In this document: positions 2,911 to 64,000 of the stretch, in pieces
How positions within the stretch are numbered: position 1 is the first letter of the stretch
Layout of the letters: each line of letters opens with the position of its first letter
DNA from: Octopus vulgaris
Taxonomy: Eukaryota
Direction of reading: 5' to 3'
Assembly: GCA_951406725.2 (NCBI GenBank)
Contig: OX597819.1
Location: forward strand, 11,656,001-11,720,000
Length of the DNA stretch: 64,000 bases
Notes under the pieces: generated by a model
Databases searched by the model: none
Told to the model about the DNA's origin: nothing
What the model saw: the letters and a program-made list of their open reading frames with translations, nothing else
Translations under genes and position numbers: made by a program

Positions 2911-2991
2911 CTTTACAGCTGTTTCAATTAATACTCAGTAAATATTAAGTAAATATTAAATTTATATGGCCTGAGCATAGTATCTTCAGAG
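2911..2991 (-). ncRNA. degenerate type I hammerhead-like motif
   Basis: Minus strand CTGAAGA...ATGCTCAG/CTGAGTAT stem...GAAACAGCTGTA; same palindromic ACAGCTGT stem III as 57797-57904; closing pairs of stem II decayed. Confidence 0.5.
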
Positions 2992-3384
2992 CAAAAAATT
3001 ATACCTTTGGATGTTTTATATATGTTTATGGATTCATTATAGCAGACTGAATAATACGGTTTATAATTTATATTGTTGGGGCGAGGGATTTACAGGTTGA
3101 TTGGAGGTGAGATAGAGCAGGTAAAAAGAATTAGGACAAAAAATGAATAAATTAAATAGGGAAGATAGAGAAAATTTAAATATAAATAAGGTAAGTTTAT
3201 GGTTAATAAAAGAATAAAATAATCGTTTATATGGTATGAATAATGTCATGAAGATTTGTATGTATATGCAAGTACGCACGTATACATATATACGCATGCA
3301 TATATGTATCCGTACGTCCATATATATACACAGAGACATATGCATATATCCACACACATACATACATCCACACGTACACACATA

Positions 3385-3611
3385 TATTTCTTTATTACCC
3401 ACAAGAGGCTAAACACAGAGGGGACAAACAATTTTTTTTCTTTAAGTCGATTACATTGACCCCAGTGCATAACTGGTACTTAATTTATCGACCCCGAATG
3501 GATGAAAGGCAAAGTCGACCTCGGCGGAATTTGAACTCAGAACGTAACGGCAGACAAAATACGGCTACGCATTTCGTCCGGCGTGCTAACGTTTCTGCCA
3601 GCTCGCCGCCT
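3385..3611 (-). mobile_element. SINE family B
   Basis: Matches 1606-1832 copy. Confidence 0.85.
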
Positions 3612-3900
3612 TTCACACATATCATACGTACACACATATCCACACATACACGTATATACGTATATATACACATACATGCGCAAATTTATGAATACGCGTG
3701 CACACTCACATATACATATATGTGTGTGTGTGTGTGTGTGTGTGTGTGTGTGTGTGTGTGTGTGTGTGTGTGTGTGTGCATGTGTGTATGTGTGTGTGTG
3801 AGTGTTTGTGTGTGTGTCTGTGTCTGTGTGCAGTTCAAATTTACAGAAAGCAGAAGAAGACACAGGTTTATTAGTTTAACGCTCGGGAAGAATAGGAAAG

Positions 3901-3938
3901 TCTTCGACTTTTCGAGCCTCCGCTCTTTGACAGAAAAG
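3901..3938 (-). ncRNA. degenerate minimal hammerhead-like motif (same family as 63708-63745)
   Basis: Minus strand CTGTCAAA-GAGC-GGAG-GCTC-GAAAAGTC; stem II intact, core mutated. Confidence 0.4.
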
Positions 3939-5605
3939 CTTGAGAGAGAGAAAAACGGAGAGAGAGCTTAAAAAAGAACGGTGAGAGGGAACAAAACGTG
4001 TAGAGATTAACGGTTCAATATATCCTTTTCAAATCATGCGAATGGCATGTGTGAGTGTGTGTGTGTGTGTGCGCGCATATGTGTTGAGAGCGAGAGTCAG
4101 TTGAATAATTAGAATGGTTATTGCTTTTTTTAATGGGGTGCTAAGCAAAGATAGCTCTAATGATTTGTCTTTTTAAATGTAGAATCGCGACAAATATCAT
4201 CGTGTCCAGTCACGTGTCTTTTCAAACTATCAACAGACACACAACATTTATTATATGACTATCAGAAGTATTCTTTCGGCTGTTATTGATCTATTATTGC
4301 CTTGAGTAAATAATAAGACCAGTCTTAAAAAGACAAACTTTGATACAAGTTGAACATTAAAAAAAACATTATTGATCCTTTCCTTGCGCAGAAAGAACAG
4401 GGTCGATGATCTCGATGAGGTTATTTAATTCGGTTCCAATAAAAATACTCCATGATTCCCCATCAACTATTTTTCAAACGTTCCTCATGAATATTACTTT
4501 TTTCAAGATCATATTTAAACCCGTCTTTATAGGGCGCTCCTTTGATAAAACAATATCGAAATATTTACTCTATAAAGAATCGTGTTCACTATGGAGTAGA
4601 TGTTTTGAAATTCTTTCATCTTTTTTTTTTATTTTACGAATTAAAGATGACCTACCTATCTTTGTCTGCCACATCACCTGAGATATGTGCTTTACAATAT
4701 TTGATAACTCCAAGACTTAAATGTAACATGGTCACTTTAAGGCAAAATTTGTTGAAGACAACTGAATGCATTACAACAATTTAACATACTTCGAATACAA
4801 TGCCCGTCATTCACAGTTCTACATTAAAAACACAAAATGCATGGCTTTAATGATAAGTTTTTTTTTTCACAACAAACTGCAATGTAAAGCCTATACAACT
4901 TAAAATATCTCTCAAACATAATTAAACTAGTTTTAAGATTGCATACTCTCTGTCACTACTTCACGCATCTACTCCACTATTTTAGTATCATTGCTTTTAT
5001 ACAGTGTTAAGATCATAGCAAAGATTGTAACTTTGCAAAAGATATGATTTCTAAATTTTATTTGCAGTTTAGTCATCAGGTTTTCTCTTCCCATTTAACG
5101 GGCTGTCAAGATATTACAAAATAAGATTTTTCAAAGTTTTACCCCATACCGTGATCTTAGGATACGCAAGAGGCATTCCAGAACCGAGCTGATAAAGAAT
5201 AAATGATTTATCAAGAATTATTTTGAGGTTTAGCATGTTACATGCCAAAGAAATTTTATCTATAAGAGTTTGTAAATCTTTTTCATTGTGTGTGACGATA
5301 CCACAGTCATCAGCGTACCAAGTGGTCTCTTATCAGAGATACTAAAATGTGCGATTTAGAATTAAACAGTTTAGGGTTGAAGAATTTATGCGGTAGCGTA
5401 TATAAGTACCAGAAGTGGTTTAATGAAAAAAGAAAATTCTTTTGTGGTAAAATATGGCGAATGGAACAAGTGTAGCATATTTGGTATGTTGAGACGAAGT
5501 AATTATATAATGTCTTACTTTACGTCAAAAGAAAAGAAAAATGCTGAAGTTCGCCGGAAGCAGAACAATGAATGAAATGAGAAATAAAGAAAGCTTTTAA
5601 CAATG

Positions 5606-5861
5606 CAGAAAGATTTTTTTAAAGAAAAACTCTATATTTCGGGTGCAAAGGACCATCTTCAGAAGGGTTCAGTCAAAGAAATGTGTATTTACAAAGCTCC
5701 TGTCATTTTAGATAGTCCGGCTGCTGTTGCTGCTTACCCAAACACCGGGTTCTCCAAAATGGCAGGATTTATGTAAATACTCATTTCTTTGATTATATTC
5801 TTCTGAAGATAGTCTTTTGTGCCCGAATTACAAAGCTTTTTTTTTAAAAAAAAGCTCTCTG
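5606..5861. mobile_element. fold-back MITE-like element with ~100-bp imperfect inverted arms
   Basis: TTCGGGTGCAAAGGACCATCTTCAGAAG...ATTTTAGA matches the reverse complement of TCCAAAATGGCAGG...CTTCTGAAGATAGTCTTTTGTGCCCGAA. Confidence 0.7.
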
Positions 5862-61012: not shown

Positions 61013-61424
61013 GTATGCAGTCAACCCTGAGAAGACTTCGCTGCGAACAAATCTATTTAGAGTCAATGTTTGTAAAAACACATGTCATGGGACAATAGAA
61101 CACGTGTTTCTGCGTCGTTACGCTTTATCAGCTGCACACACACACCCTGAGTCCGACATTCATAGGAACACTAAAAGCAACTGTTCTTATATGTAAACCG
61201 CAAATAATAAATTTATGGGTGTGTAAAAGTTTTCTCAAGCTGGCATTAATTAATTAAAAGACGCACTAAGCAGCTGTCAATCAATCTCGTCTTTATATAT
61301 ATATATGTATGTGTGTGTGTATGTATATATGTATATATATATATATATATATATATATATATATATATGTGTGTGTGTGTGTGTGTGTGTGTGTGTGTGT
61401 ACATATATATGTATATATATATAT

Positions 61425-61895
61425 TCTTTATTCTTTTATTTGTTTCAGTCATTTGACTGCGGCCCTCCTGAAGCACCGCCTTTTGTCGAACAAATCGACC
61501 CCAGAACTTATTCTTTGTAAGCCTAGTATTTATTCTATCGGTCTCTTTGCCAAACTGCTAAGTTACGGGGGACGTAAACACACCACCATCGGTTTTCAAG
61601 CGATGGTGGAGGGACAAGCACAGACATACAAACATATACATACATACATATATATATATATATATATATATATATATATATATATATATATATATATATA
61701 TATATATATATATATATATATATATATATATATACGACGGGCTTCTTTCAGTTTCCGTCAACCAAATCCACTCACAAGGCTTTGGTCGGCCCGAAACTAT
61801 AGTAGAAGACACTTGCCTAAGGAGCCACGCAGTTGGAATGAACTCAGGACTATATGGTTGGGAAGGAAGCTTCTTACCACACAACCACGCCTACG
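61425..61895 (-). mobile_element. SINE family A with expanded internal (TA)n
   Basis: Matches consensus. Confidence 0.86.
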
Positions 61896-63225
61896 CATAA
61901 AAATATGTCTACTACATACGTGGGGAATTCTGTCTGTGGATGTATGTGTGGAGTTGTTAGCTAATTCCTCCTACATCATTTTATCGATGTTGATGAAACT
62001 TGACACGTGGGTAGAACTCATGTCTGGAAACCTCATTGCATACTCAGATTGTTGAAAAATAGATAATAGGGCCCCTAGAAAGGATCCTTATATATATATA
62101 TATTATTCTAAACGCCAAAGGAAATAACCCATTCGCTCCTGGAAGGGATCCTTATATACAGCCAAGAGAAATAACCCTTTCATTTTCCTAAATTATTTGG
62201 TATAAATCAAATGAAGTATGCTTATTTCTTAGTATTTGAACTGTTAGAGTTATCTTCGCAATTCATCCAGCACAACCCTTAAAAAAATAAATAGTATTTT
62301 CCTACGCAATAACTCCACGAGTGAACAGAGGAAATATGAATGGGGTTTTTATAAGATGCTGTCAAGGCGAACCAGTTGAGTTCAGAACCTGCTGCTTCAT
62401 AGCTGTGAAAATTGAGTTTATTAATGTTTAAATGAGCAATTTGCGTAAAGCTCGTACAATGAAATATTCTCGTTATTTTTGTTATATTTCAGAATAATTT
62501 ATCACGAGCAATGAGAACTACTACGTAAGTATAATATATAAATATATGTATATCTGCATGTTTTTGTGCGTATATGTATGTATAATTGTTACGTTTTACA
62601 CACACACACACACATAAATACACACACACACACACACACACACACACACACGCAAACAAACACAGGCACACACACACCTCTTAAATGCGGAAAACCACAA
62701 TTTAACTTAAAGTACATAATACATCGAGAGAAGTGGATGTATTTATGAATTTAAAACAACATCTCTTATCTCTTATATTTGAAACAATGTGTCTTCTAAA
62801 ACACAGTCTTTTGTAAAATAAGACGAGCCTTATTCCTCCTTCACTTCCGAATTTCTTCAATTCTGAAGTGATACAAAACGAGGATGGTTTTCTAAGTCAT
62901 TGTTTCATTTATATATATATATATATATATATATATATATATGCATATATATACATATACATATATGCATATATATATATATTGTATATACTATATATAT
63001 ATATATATATATATATATATATATATATACACACACACACATATATATATACACACACACACATATGAACACGGAACCATGTGGTTGGTAAACAAGCTAC
63101 TTACCACACACCCACTCCAGCGCCTATATATATATATATATATAGATAGATAGATAGATAGATAGATAGATATGCATATATATGCATATATATACACACA
63201 TACACATATGTATATATTTATGTAT

Positions 63226-63540
63226 TATATATATATGTATGCATGAATTTATTCATATGAATATGTATGCATGCATGTATGTATTATATATATATATATA
63301 TATATATATATATATATATATATATATATATATATATATATATATATATATATATATATATATATATATATATATATATATATATATATATATATATATA
63401 TATATATATATATATATATATATATATATATATATATATATATATATATATATATATATATATATATATATATACATATATATATACATACATGCATGCA
63501 TACATATTCATATGAATAAATTCATGCATACATATATATA
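63226..63540. repeat. palindrome with (TA)n centre and ~55-bp perfect inverted flanks
   Basis: GCATGAATTTATTCATATGAATATGTATGCATGCATG mirrored at 63485-63537. Confidence 0.9.
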
Positions 63541-63707
63541 GATAGATAGATAGATAGATAGATAGATAGATAGATAGATAGATAGATAGATAGATAGGTA
63601 TGATTCGCTAGCTTCTGCACGCATTTTTTTTTCTCTCCTTTTTTTTCTCTCCTTTTTTTCTCTCCTTGTTTCTCTCCGTGTTTCTTTCTGTGTTTCTTTT
63701 CTGTGTA

Positions 63708-63745
63708 TCTTTCTGTTGAAGAGCGTAGGCTCGAAACGTAAAAGA
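63708..63745 (+). ncRNA. minimal hammerhead-like motif with variant core CUGUUGAA
   Basis: TCTTT-CTGTTGAA-GAGC-GTAG-GCTC-GAAA-CG-TA-AAAGA; 5-bp stem I, 4-bp stem II, loopless palindromic stem III. Confidence 0.62.
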
Positions 63746-64000
63746 CTTGTTTTATTTCTATTCCAGATCGCCATACTAATACAATTGTTTGTTTGTATTC
63801 CACCTGCCTTCGTCTTTTGTTTATTTTCATAAAGCTTCCCGTTATATATGTATGTCATTGTTCAGTTTTATTTCAAGATTTCTTGCCAGTAGAGAAAGGA
63901 CCGGTTTCTAACCTAGATTCAAGGCGCCTTCATTGGAATTTCAACATCAACATATTTTTGTGTGTATGTATGTATGTATGTATGTATGTATGTATGTATG

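What the first reader, a model, noticed from the sequence alone, without database searches (positions are those of the whole stretch)
2911..63845. Recurrent short hammerhead-bearing elements embedded in TA/GATA microsatellites (candidate retrozyme / non-autonomous Penelope system)
Seen: at least six short, ORF-less segments next to simple repeats, mostly (TA)n or (GATA)n (around 2911, 3901, 6700, 19418, 56728/57797, 58230, 63708). Each carries a CUGANGA...GAAA...UH-like fold or its 3' half, mostly with a self-complementary stem III (ACAGCUGU, ACGCGU, AACGUU, ACGU). Their sequences fall into several unrelated families. Established: Penelope-like elements carry minimal type I hammerheads in pseudo-LTRs that cleave as dimers, and retrozymes are non-coding hammerhead retroelements. 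Inference: this genome hosts a diverse, microsatellite-associated ribozyme retroelement population that ordinary repeat masking would miss.
Basis: partly seen in the sequence, partly recalled or inferred. Interest (0 to 1): 0.75.

Follow-up and report, generated by a model that had tools for sequence, protein, structure and literature searches.

The report
Penelope ends, retrozyme, and A6U hammerhead
The hammerhead-like motifs are real and are mostly broken-off ends of Penelope-type jumping genes, plus one piece of a short non-coding repeat likely copied by those genes into TA stretches; these are known kinds, but one very abundant family carries a changed catalytic-core letter whose effect on cutting is untested.

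Summary
All eight coordinates mark hammerhead motifs of dispersed repeat families in a 2.8-Gb, probably octopus, genome. Most are not independent non-coding elements. They are 5'-truncated 3' ends (pseudo-LTRs) of Penelope-like elements: Hydra clade (56.4-58.1 kb, 58.2 kb; 2.9 kb by motif only) and Neptune clade (63.7, 19.4, 3.9 kb), traced to RT + GIY-YIG ORFs elsewhere. Only 6.7 kb is a true non-LTR retrozyme (362-nt tandem unit, U3-A8 core, 1,293 pattern hits). A second retrozyme at 60.5-60.9 kb was missed. Young copies end directly in (TA)n (29/32, 24/26; background 2%). Two points go beyond the papers I could search. (1) A recently amplified Neptune family has U at core position 6: 15,703 hits, only 159 with A, 30/30 young ORF-linked copies with U, while N7 and N17 vary as in a working hammerhead. 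(2) Retrozyme insertions are two-armed, with the arms ending at two fixed internal sites, as in Hydra elements, which points to the carrier. Cleavage and RNA circles are untested. This scan reported the same themes before, in this genome and others.

The parts
2820..3384 (-). Family F: old (85-90% identity) pseudo-LTR-like remnant; hammerhead 2910-2992 with canonical CUGAAGA, long domain II, palindromic ACAGCUGU, stem I CCCU/AGGG in the family. Hydra-like by motif only; 5' limit approximate
   Evidence: no linked ORF found
3832..4018 (-). Family G: decayed 3' end of an old Neptune-type PLE related to family D; hammerhead 3901-3937 (family core CUGUCGA-A, this copy CUGUCAA)
   Evidence: Neptune-type GIY-YIG upstream in L171/L207 and L208
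6462..6859 (.). Family B: two-armed insertion of a 362-nt non-LTR retrozyme. Left arm (- strand, about 6462-6717) holds the 3' half of the hammerhead (6693-6717); right arm (+, about 6729-6859) lacks it; both arms end in (TA)n
19317..19527 (-). Family E: 3' end of a Neptune-type PLE; hammerhead 19419-19454, canonical CUGACGA plus extra A, stem II GAGC/GCUC in the family (one mismatch in this copy), stem III ACGU
   Evidence: RT + CX4CXXC + GIY-YIG upstream in L302, 3' UTR aligned with L303
56358..58101 (.). Family A: head-to-head inverted pair of 3' ends of a young Hydra-clade PLE; hammerheads 56728-56834(-) and 57797-57904(+), CUGAAGA, 84-85-nt domain II, ACAGCUGU; left arm has the long 'tail' end, right arm the short end, both in (TA)n
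58132..58284 (-). Family C: 3' end of a Hydra-clade PLE between two (TA)n tracts; hammerhead 58235-58272, U4C subfamily (CCGAUGA), stem I CUGU/ACAG, stem III ACUC-A-GAGU
60517..60922 (-).
63600..63842 (+). Family D: 3' end of a very abundant Neptune PLE; hammerhead 63708-63745 with CUGUUGA (A6U) plus extra A, stem I UCUUU/AAAGA, stem II GAGC/GCUC, stem III ACGU; ends in TA

Best explanation
The listed sites are 5'-truncated 3' ends of Penelope-like retrotransposons (Hydra and Neptune clades) plus one fragment of a 362-base non-coding retrozyme, all likely written into (TA)n tracts by Penelope endonuclease/reverse transcriptase, and their hammerheads are predicted, not shown, to cut. Shown: family membership, continuity with RT + GIY-YIG ORFs for five of seven elements, fixed 3' ends at (TA)n with variable 5' ends, head-to-head inverted arms, tandem ORF-less 362-nt units for the retrozyme. 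Inferred: the GIY-YIG cuts both strands of a (TA)n tract; reverse transcription starts at two fixed internal sites of the RNA near the hammerhead, one from each cut strand; early termination leaves short hammerhead-bearing ends, and joining of the two cDNAs gives the inverted pairs. Inferred: the retrozyme RNA self-cleaves as a dimer through its palindromic stem III, likely circularises, and is copied in trans across the cleavage site by a Hydra-clade enzyme (about 0.6 for Hydra over Neptune). Inferred: the A6U motif of the Neptune family is still a hammerhead under selection that would cleave slowly, probably protein-assisted (about 0.55, against 0.35 for a non-cutting binding structure).
For: Hydra ORFs: family A RT with RWR and DKT motifs, CxCx5C linker, GIY-YIG without CCHH, flanked by CxxC and CxH; family C RT with RWK and DKT and endonuclease continuous with the pLTR in L213/L214; these are the features listed by Craig 2021 section 11, whose table shows the same hammerhead layout. 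Neptune ORFs: pLTR-ORF-pLTR copies with the motif at both ends 4.48-4.51 kb apart in 3 of 4 fetched, Pfam RVT_1 E=1.8e-7 above cut-off, DKG, CX4CXXC and CCHH read by eye. TA junctions: D young 29/32, C 24/26, E 26/42 against 411/18,537 background (overlapping loci not removed); A 17 of 28 ends go into TA and 11 continue into the long tail. Retrozyme: 360-364-nt spacing, up to about 6 units; 12 of 16 unbiased insertions two-armed; 23 of 28 arm ends at two sites (monomer 172-178 and 235-239), 21 of these followed by TA; all 8 with both ends at these sites have one of each, as do 15 of 15 junction-selected ones (hand count). Units and arms of one insertion differ by 0.9-1.0%, different insertions by 5.3%. 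Divergent pairs among the first 100 pattern hits: Hydra C 24, retrozyme 13, Neptune D 0 (hand count). A6U: 159 of 15,703 have A; in the first 100, U6 96 and N7 = U41/A25/C19/G11; 15,703 of 17,941 keep CUG..GAA when the core is left free; flanks of N7 classes are only 65-85% alike; 30/30 young endonuclease-linked copies have CUGUUGA. Papers: two internal RT start sites and a protein-assisted hammerhead in the anole PLE (PMC11167929, passages); A6C keeps low Mg2+ and good Mn2+ activity (PMC7151607, passages); U3-A8 is active (PMC3088659, section 8).
Against: No cleavage or RNA end was observed. In the anole PLE, hammerhead cleavage was not needed for insertion in vitro and no RNA-seq ends lay at the site (PMC11167929). 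Metazoan minimal hammerheads cleave weakly (PMC4209133). Several window copies are probably dead: 3901 has G8A, 6700 lacks the 5' half, family A has only a 2-bp stem I. Minimum-energy folds of A, C, D and F do not give the active fold unaided. Within-family covariation in the retrozyme rests on one compensatory pair (A-U 10 / G-C 7); 480 of 500 shuffles reach that pair count. Hydra ORFs have no Pfam RT hit, so their clade rests on motifs read by eye, without a tree. Family F has no linked ORF. No sequence link between the retrozyme and a given PLE was found. In family D loop 2 is also nearly fixed, which a protein-binding role would explain equally well. Family C's linker reads CxF rather than CxC and its second motif YTG in the two copies seen.
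Confidence: 0.85

Rival explanations
1. All segments are independent short non-autonomous ribozyme elements (retrozymes or SINE-like units) that move as such.
For: Most copies are 150-400 nt and ORF-less; family E 5' ends cluster within about 20 nt in 19 top hits; family F has no ORF found.
Against: 5' ends vary and extend into 3' UTR and ORF for A, C, D, E, G; only B and B2 have defined tandem ORF-less units.
Confidence: 0.08
2. The A6U motif no longer cuts and is kept as a folded RNA handle for the element's protein or for dimer formation.
For: A6 changes strongly lower activity in Mg2+ (PMC3088659 section 8; PMC7151607 passages); cleavage was dispensable in vitro for the anole PLE (PMC11167929); loop 2 is conserved too; Naiads multiply without canonical hammerheads (PMC8557442).
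Against: The variable positions are the ones free in active hammerheads (N7 all four bases; N17 A or U, C in family G, G once in 44 copies), while C3, U4, G5, G8, A9 and GAAA stay fixed across subfamilies 65-85% alike in the flanks.
Confidence: 0.35
3. The retrozyme is carried by the abundant Neptune enzyme (family D) rather than by a Hydra enzyme.
For: D is the most active PLE seen (150 of 150 scored endonuclease hits identical, open frames to 1,214 codons); it also targets TA; retrozyme copies sit next to D elements in several loci.
Against: D shows 0 divergent pairs in 100 hits against 13 for the retrozyme and 24 for Hydra C; young D copies have one 3' end, whereas the retrozyme and Hydra A and C have two. 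Adjacency is expected from a shared target.
Confidence: 0.25
4. Retrozyme arrays are satellites that arose from a PLE end and spread by DNA recombination, without an RNA step.
For: Local tandem amplification is proposed by Li et al. (bioRxiv 10.64898/2026.07.22.740005, passages); homogeneity within arrays also fits concerted evolution.
Against: Copies are dispersed over many chromosomes, end at two fixed sites in (TA)n and form head-to-head arms; the hammerhead is kept with compensatory changes, also in the second family B2.
Confidence: 0.08
5. The motifs are chance matches in a microsatellite-rich sequence.
For: GAAA followed by a short palindrome occurs about 100 times in the window; simple repeats cover 21%.
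Against: 10 sites against a shuffle mean of 0.6; thousands of exact genomic copies with 0 control hits.
Confidence: 0.01

Closest known systems
Hydra-clade Penelope-like elements, including Hydra-1_Obim of Octopus bimaculoides (Craig et al. 2021, PMC8557442; passages, section 11, supplement part 2 and supplement search hits read)
   Same: RWK/DKT motifs, CxCx5C linker, no CCHH, (TA)n insertion, 3' hammerhead with unpaired bases at the foot of stem II and stem III ACUC-N-GAGU or ACAG..CUGU; family C matches Hydra-2_Amil in stem I (CUGU/ACAG) and stem III.
   Different: Other families than Hydra-1_Obim (different hammerhead). Family A is longer than the usual 3 kb, with Asn-rich inserts, a 3' UTR over 2 kb and an 85-nt domain II. 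Family C has a U4C subfamily (29 of 100).
Neptune-clade PLEs with minimal type I hammerheads (Cervera and de la Pena 2014, PMC4209133, parts 1-2 of 4 read; clade features from PMC8557442)
   Same: Single RT + GIY-YIG ORF between pseudo-LTRs, CX2-5CxxC linker, CCHH, microsatellite bias, extra base between positions 9 and 10.1, palindromic stem III, mostly solo truncated copies.
   Different: Family D/G carries U at position 6 in about 96-99% of copies, including the youngest intact ones. The text read reports U3-A8 but not A6U; its supplementary alignments were not read.
Metazoan non-LTR retrozymes (Cervera and de la Pena 2020, PMC7229834, passages; Li et al. bioRxiv 10.64898/2026.07.22.740005, part 1 of 5 and passages)
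   Same: ORF-less tandem units of about 360 nt, GC 42%, one type I hammerhead per unit with 6-bp stem I, bulge, 4-bp stem II and weak palindromic stem III; close to the 350-390-nt Mytilus units.
   Different: U3-A8 core in both families; dispersed two-armed insertions in (TA)n with two fixed start sites. The passages read do not describe such ends.
Natural A6C hammerhead of phage Bcep176 (PMC3088659 section 8; PMC7151607 passages)
   Same: A pyrimidine at the normally invariant position 6.
   Different: U instead of C, in a minimal dimer-type motif, and in over 15,000 copies of an animal retroelement; activity unknown.

Membership tests
Hydra-clade PLE (families A, C) | RT followed by C-terminal GIY-YIG, continuous with the hammerhead end | tested here: met
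   A; C; all copies seen are frameshifted or split
Hydra-clade PLE (families A, C) | RWK and DKT motifs, no CCHH | tested here: met
   read by eye: A RWR/DKT, C RWK/DKT
Hydra-clade PLE (families A, C) | CxCX5C linker | tested here: inconclusive
   met in A; C reads CxFx5C in both copies seen
Hydra-clade PLE (families A, C) | (TA)n insertion | tested here: met
Hydra-clade PLE (families A, C) | RT phylogeny within the Hydra clade | not tested
   no reference set in the tools; 674 homologues, named ones from Apostichopus and Hydractinia
Hydra-clade PLE (family F) | Linked RT/GIY-YIG ORF | tested here: inconclusive
   endonuclease pieces near F copies are separated by TA tracts; not filed as a member
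Neptune-clade PLE (families D, E, G) | Single RT + GIY-YIG ORF between pseudo-LTRs | tested here: met
   D; E: (broken copy); G: endonuclease and RT pieces
Neptune-clade PLE (families D, E, G) | DKG motif, CX2-5CxxC linker, CCHH | tested here: met
   read by eye in D; linker and GIY-YIG cysteines in E
Neptune-clade PLE (families D, E, G) | RT phylogeny separating Neptune from Nematis | not tested
   no tree built
Non-LTR retrozyme (B, B2) | ORF-less tandem units of 150-400 nt with one type I hammerhead each | tested here: met
   B2 (mostly 1-1.6 units)
Non-LTR retrozyme (B, B2) | Self-cleavage | not testable with these tools
   needs an assay
Non-LTR retrozyme (B, B2) | Accumulation as circular RNA | not testable with these tools
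   only contigs of runs not on record as RNA were available
Hammerhead ribozyme (family D motif) | Invariant core C3 U4 G5 A6 N7 G8 A9, G12 A13 A14 | tested here: not met
   A6 in 159 of 15,703; the other positions are met; filed as a variant motif
Hammerhead ribozyme (family D motif) | Three stems and an NUH site | tested here: met
   5-bp stem I, 4-bp stem II, palindromic ACGU, GUA/GUU
Hammerhead ribozyme (family D motif) | Site-specific cleavage | not testable with these tools
   needs an assay

The most novel reading that the evidence does not exclude
An octopus-type genome holds a natural A6U hammerhead that has stayed under ribozyme-type selection through several subfamilies of a still-active Neptune retrotransposon and cuts only with help (protein or Mn2+). 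Beside it, non-coding U3-A8 retrozyme circles are copied into (TA)n by a Hydra-clade RT dimer that starts at two fixed sites, one per cut strand, on one RNA. This would name the enzyme class that moves animal retrozymes and give defined start sites for a direct test.
Probability: 0.35. Interest if true: 0.68.

Novelty: new variant of a known kind. Interest (0 to 1): 0.45.

Why it matters
Two questions are open in the papers read: what hammerheads do in Penelope-like elements, and which enzyme inserts animal retrozymes. A family of over 15,000 copies that is still amplifying with a changed core base is a natural experiment on whether fast cleavage matters. The two-site, two-armed retrozyme footprint shared with Hydra elements gives a concrete enzyme and start sites to test. 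Practically, canonical descriptors miss these motifs. The element classes are already described, including an octopus Hydra element in (TA)n with a hammerhead.

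Tried and rejected
Rfam scan: no hammerhead among the 150 rows shown of 266; a U6 copy and microsatellite-driven miRNA hits dominate. A strict CUGANGA descriptor found only the 56.7/57.8 kb pair among the listed sites. I first tied family B to a Hydra ORF in L133/L203 and family F to endonucleases in L224/L230; both were rejected because TA tracts separate them. 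I first read U4C as fixed in family C; rejected, 71 of 100 hits are canonical. I considered an ancestral A6 subfamily within D; 8 of 12 A6 copies have the flanks of U6 subfamilies, 1 is chimeric and 3 share an older flank also seen with U6, so it is not supported but not excluded. A shifted register for D (UUGAAGA as core) was rejected: it breaks stem I and makes position 4 the variable one. The stretch upstream of the 19.4-kb copy is a different repeat. Expression: no RNA holder listed. In a run only guessed to be RNA, a 379-nt contig goes back 362 bases on the retrozyme, which tandem DNA would also give; contigs on family D show no ends. None of this is used as evidence. Pfam gave no RT hit for Hydra ORFs. 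Literature searches: hammerhead ribozyme + octopus (only Craig 2021 relevant), hammerhead + A6U (one twister paper, not read), core variants, Neptune/pLTR, retrozymes. The library lacks most subscription papers. The supplements of PMC4209133 (not read) and of the bioRxiv preprint (closed) may show A6 variants or insertion ends. No RT tree and no structure prediction were run.

Full report
Setting. The window lies in a 2.8-Gb assembly of 227 contigs; simple repeats cover 21% of it.

Observation. All eight coordinates are edges of hammerhead motifs. They belong to seven elements, since 56728 and 57797 are arms of one inverted insertion. A relaxed descriptor tuned after the fact finds 10 sites against a mean of 0.6 in 40 shuffles and recovers 4 of the 8. 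Exact genome patterns give 15,703 (D type), 5,401 (C), 1,293 (B) and 219 (long E copies) hits, each with 0 for the reversed control. Being near a simple repeat means little here (59% of unmasked positions within 150 nt). The 3' junction does: D young 29/32, C 24/26 and E 26/42 run straight into TATATA against 2.2% background (overlapping loci not removed). For A, 17 of 28 ends enter TA and 11 continue into a longer tail.

Hydra clade. Family A (56358-58101) has 98-100% identical copies. Long copies carry an RT with RWR and DKT, a CxCx5C linker and a GIY-YIG without CCHH, the features Craig et al. 2021 give for Hydra (PMC8557442 section 11). Family C (58132-58284) is continuous with such an ORF in L213/L214, although its linker reads CxF in these copies. 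Its hammerhead shares stems I and III with coral Hydra-2_Amil in the paper's table, which also lists an octopus Hydra element with (TA)n preference. The window copy is from a U4C subfamily: 29 of the first 100 hits, 71 canonical (hand count). Family F (2911) has a canonical core about 65 nt upstream of GAAA and the same ACAGCUGU as A, but no ORF was linked. Pfam does not recognise the Hydra ORFs and no tree was built.

Neptune clade. Family D (63600-63842) has a fixed 3' end and variable 5' ends. Three of four long copies fetched are pLTR-ORF-pLTR units of 4.5 kb with the motif at both ends; the ORF hits RVT_1 above cut-off and GIY-YIG below it. 150 of 150 scored endonuclease hits are identical in protein, so the family amplified recently. 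Families E (19.4 kb) and G (3.9 kb) lead upstream into related RT/GIY-YIG sequence. E has a canonical core plus the extra A that Cervera and de la Pena describe (PMC4209133, parts 1-2 read), and this fixes the register for D.

The A6U core. In that register D reads CUG-U-N-GA. Only 159 of 15,703 hits have A at position 6. In the first 100, 96 have U6 and N7 takes all four bases (hand count). With positions 3-9a free, 15,703 of 17,941 keep CUG..GAA. Flanks of the N7 classes are 65-85% alike and N17 is A or U, G once in 44. All 30 young endonuclease-linked copies examined carry CUGUUGA. The free positions are those free in working hammerheads, which argues for continued selection as a ribozyme. 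Against this, loop 2 is also nearly fixed, A6C cleaves poorly in Mg2+ although well in Mn2+ (PMC3088659 section 8; PMC7151607 passages), and in the anole PLE cleavage needs the protein and is not required for insertion in vitro (PMC11167929 passages). I put slow, assisted cleavage at about 0.55. A search for hammerhead + A6U returned only a twister paper.

The retrozyme. Family B is a 362-nt ORF-less unit, 42% GC, in tandem arrays. Its hammerhead has a 6-bp stem I, a UAC bulge, an upper helix, stem II GGGG/CCCC with loop CAAUA, palindromic ACGCGU and the U3-A8 core pair known to be active. Across 17 haplotypes 97.9% of cells pair, with one compensatory pair; that count is not above shuffles. 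A second family with the same layout and different letters lies at 60517-60922. In 16 unbiased insertions, 12 are two-armed and 23 of 28 arm ends fall at monomer positions 172-178 or 235-239, 21 of them into TA; one end could not be read. All 8 insertions with both ends at these sites have one of each, as do 15 of 15 junction-selected ones, including the window copy. No arm ends at the cleavage site. Units and arms of one insertion differ by about 1%, different insertions by 5.3%. Family C shows one long and one short end in about 10 of 14 two-armed loci. Divergent pairs in the first 100 hits number 24 for C, 13 for B and 0 for D (hand count). This matches the two internal start sites mapped for the anole PLE and favours a Hydra carrier. 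A circular template is inferred; a linear multimer is not excluded.

Verdict. The classes are known; the A6U family and the retrozyme footprint are variants worth a bench test. Earlier notes of this scan report the same mixture in this genome and A6U in another genome; these are unchecked notes and not independent support. A sequence look-up of the D element in those notes found nothing.

Noticed in passing
   Followed up: yes
window 61097-61134 (-): Decayed hammerhead (CUGAUAA); a relative with canonical CUGAUGA in L291.
   Followed up: partly
window 5630-5667 (-) and 5798-5835 (+): Old inverted pair of CUGAAGA hammerhead-like motifs, probably another two-armed PLE remnant.
   Followed up: no
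window 11001-11105 (-): U6 snRNA copy (Rfam 99.8 bits) at the edge of a dispersed repeat at 10576-11012; probably a retroposed copy.
   Followed up: no
L038, L081, L082, L089, L092, L097, L100 (family A): All 8 copies seen have the same length at the RT/endonuclease junction, where the two parts lie in different frames: a defective master copied in trans, or a programmed frameshift.
   Followed up: partly
window 57242-57388: Perfect hairpin at the centre of the family A inversion, giving a spurious mir-3912 hit.
   Followed up: partly
L180:2400-2700, L146, L346-L370: Another abundant old hammerhead family sharing stem I (GCUACA/UGUAGC) and stem III (ACGCGU) with retrozyme B but with a canonical core; no linked ORF shown. 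A possible relative of the retrozyme's ancestor.
   Followed up: partly
L230, L012, L203, L224, L087, L094: Further distinct PLE families (Hydra-type and others) as neighbours; L230 has its own hammerhead with a minimal stem III.
   Followed up: no
window 9526-9966 (-), 15829-16293 (+), 42287-42994 (-), 43734-44090 (-): Fragments that look like Tc1/mariner and Mutator-type transposases (names recalled from appearance; not tested).
   Followed up: no
window 19528-19680 (-): End of a separate dispersed repeat, DNA-transposon-like, abutting the family E copy.
   Followed up: partly
window 6840-6852 and 63770-63782 (approximate): A 13-nt match between retrozyme B and family D on opposite strands; probably chance.
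   Followed up: no
window, many places (e.g. 5934-6347, 30280-30648, 21334-21917): At least three abundant SINE-like families, up to 17 copies each in the window, also often next to microsatellites.
   Followed up: no
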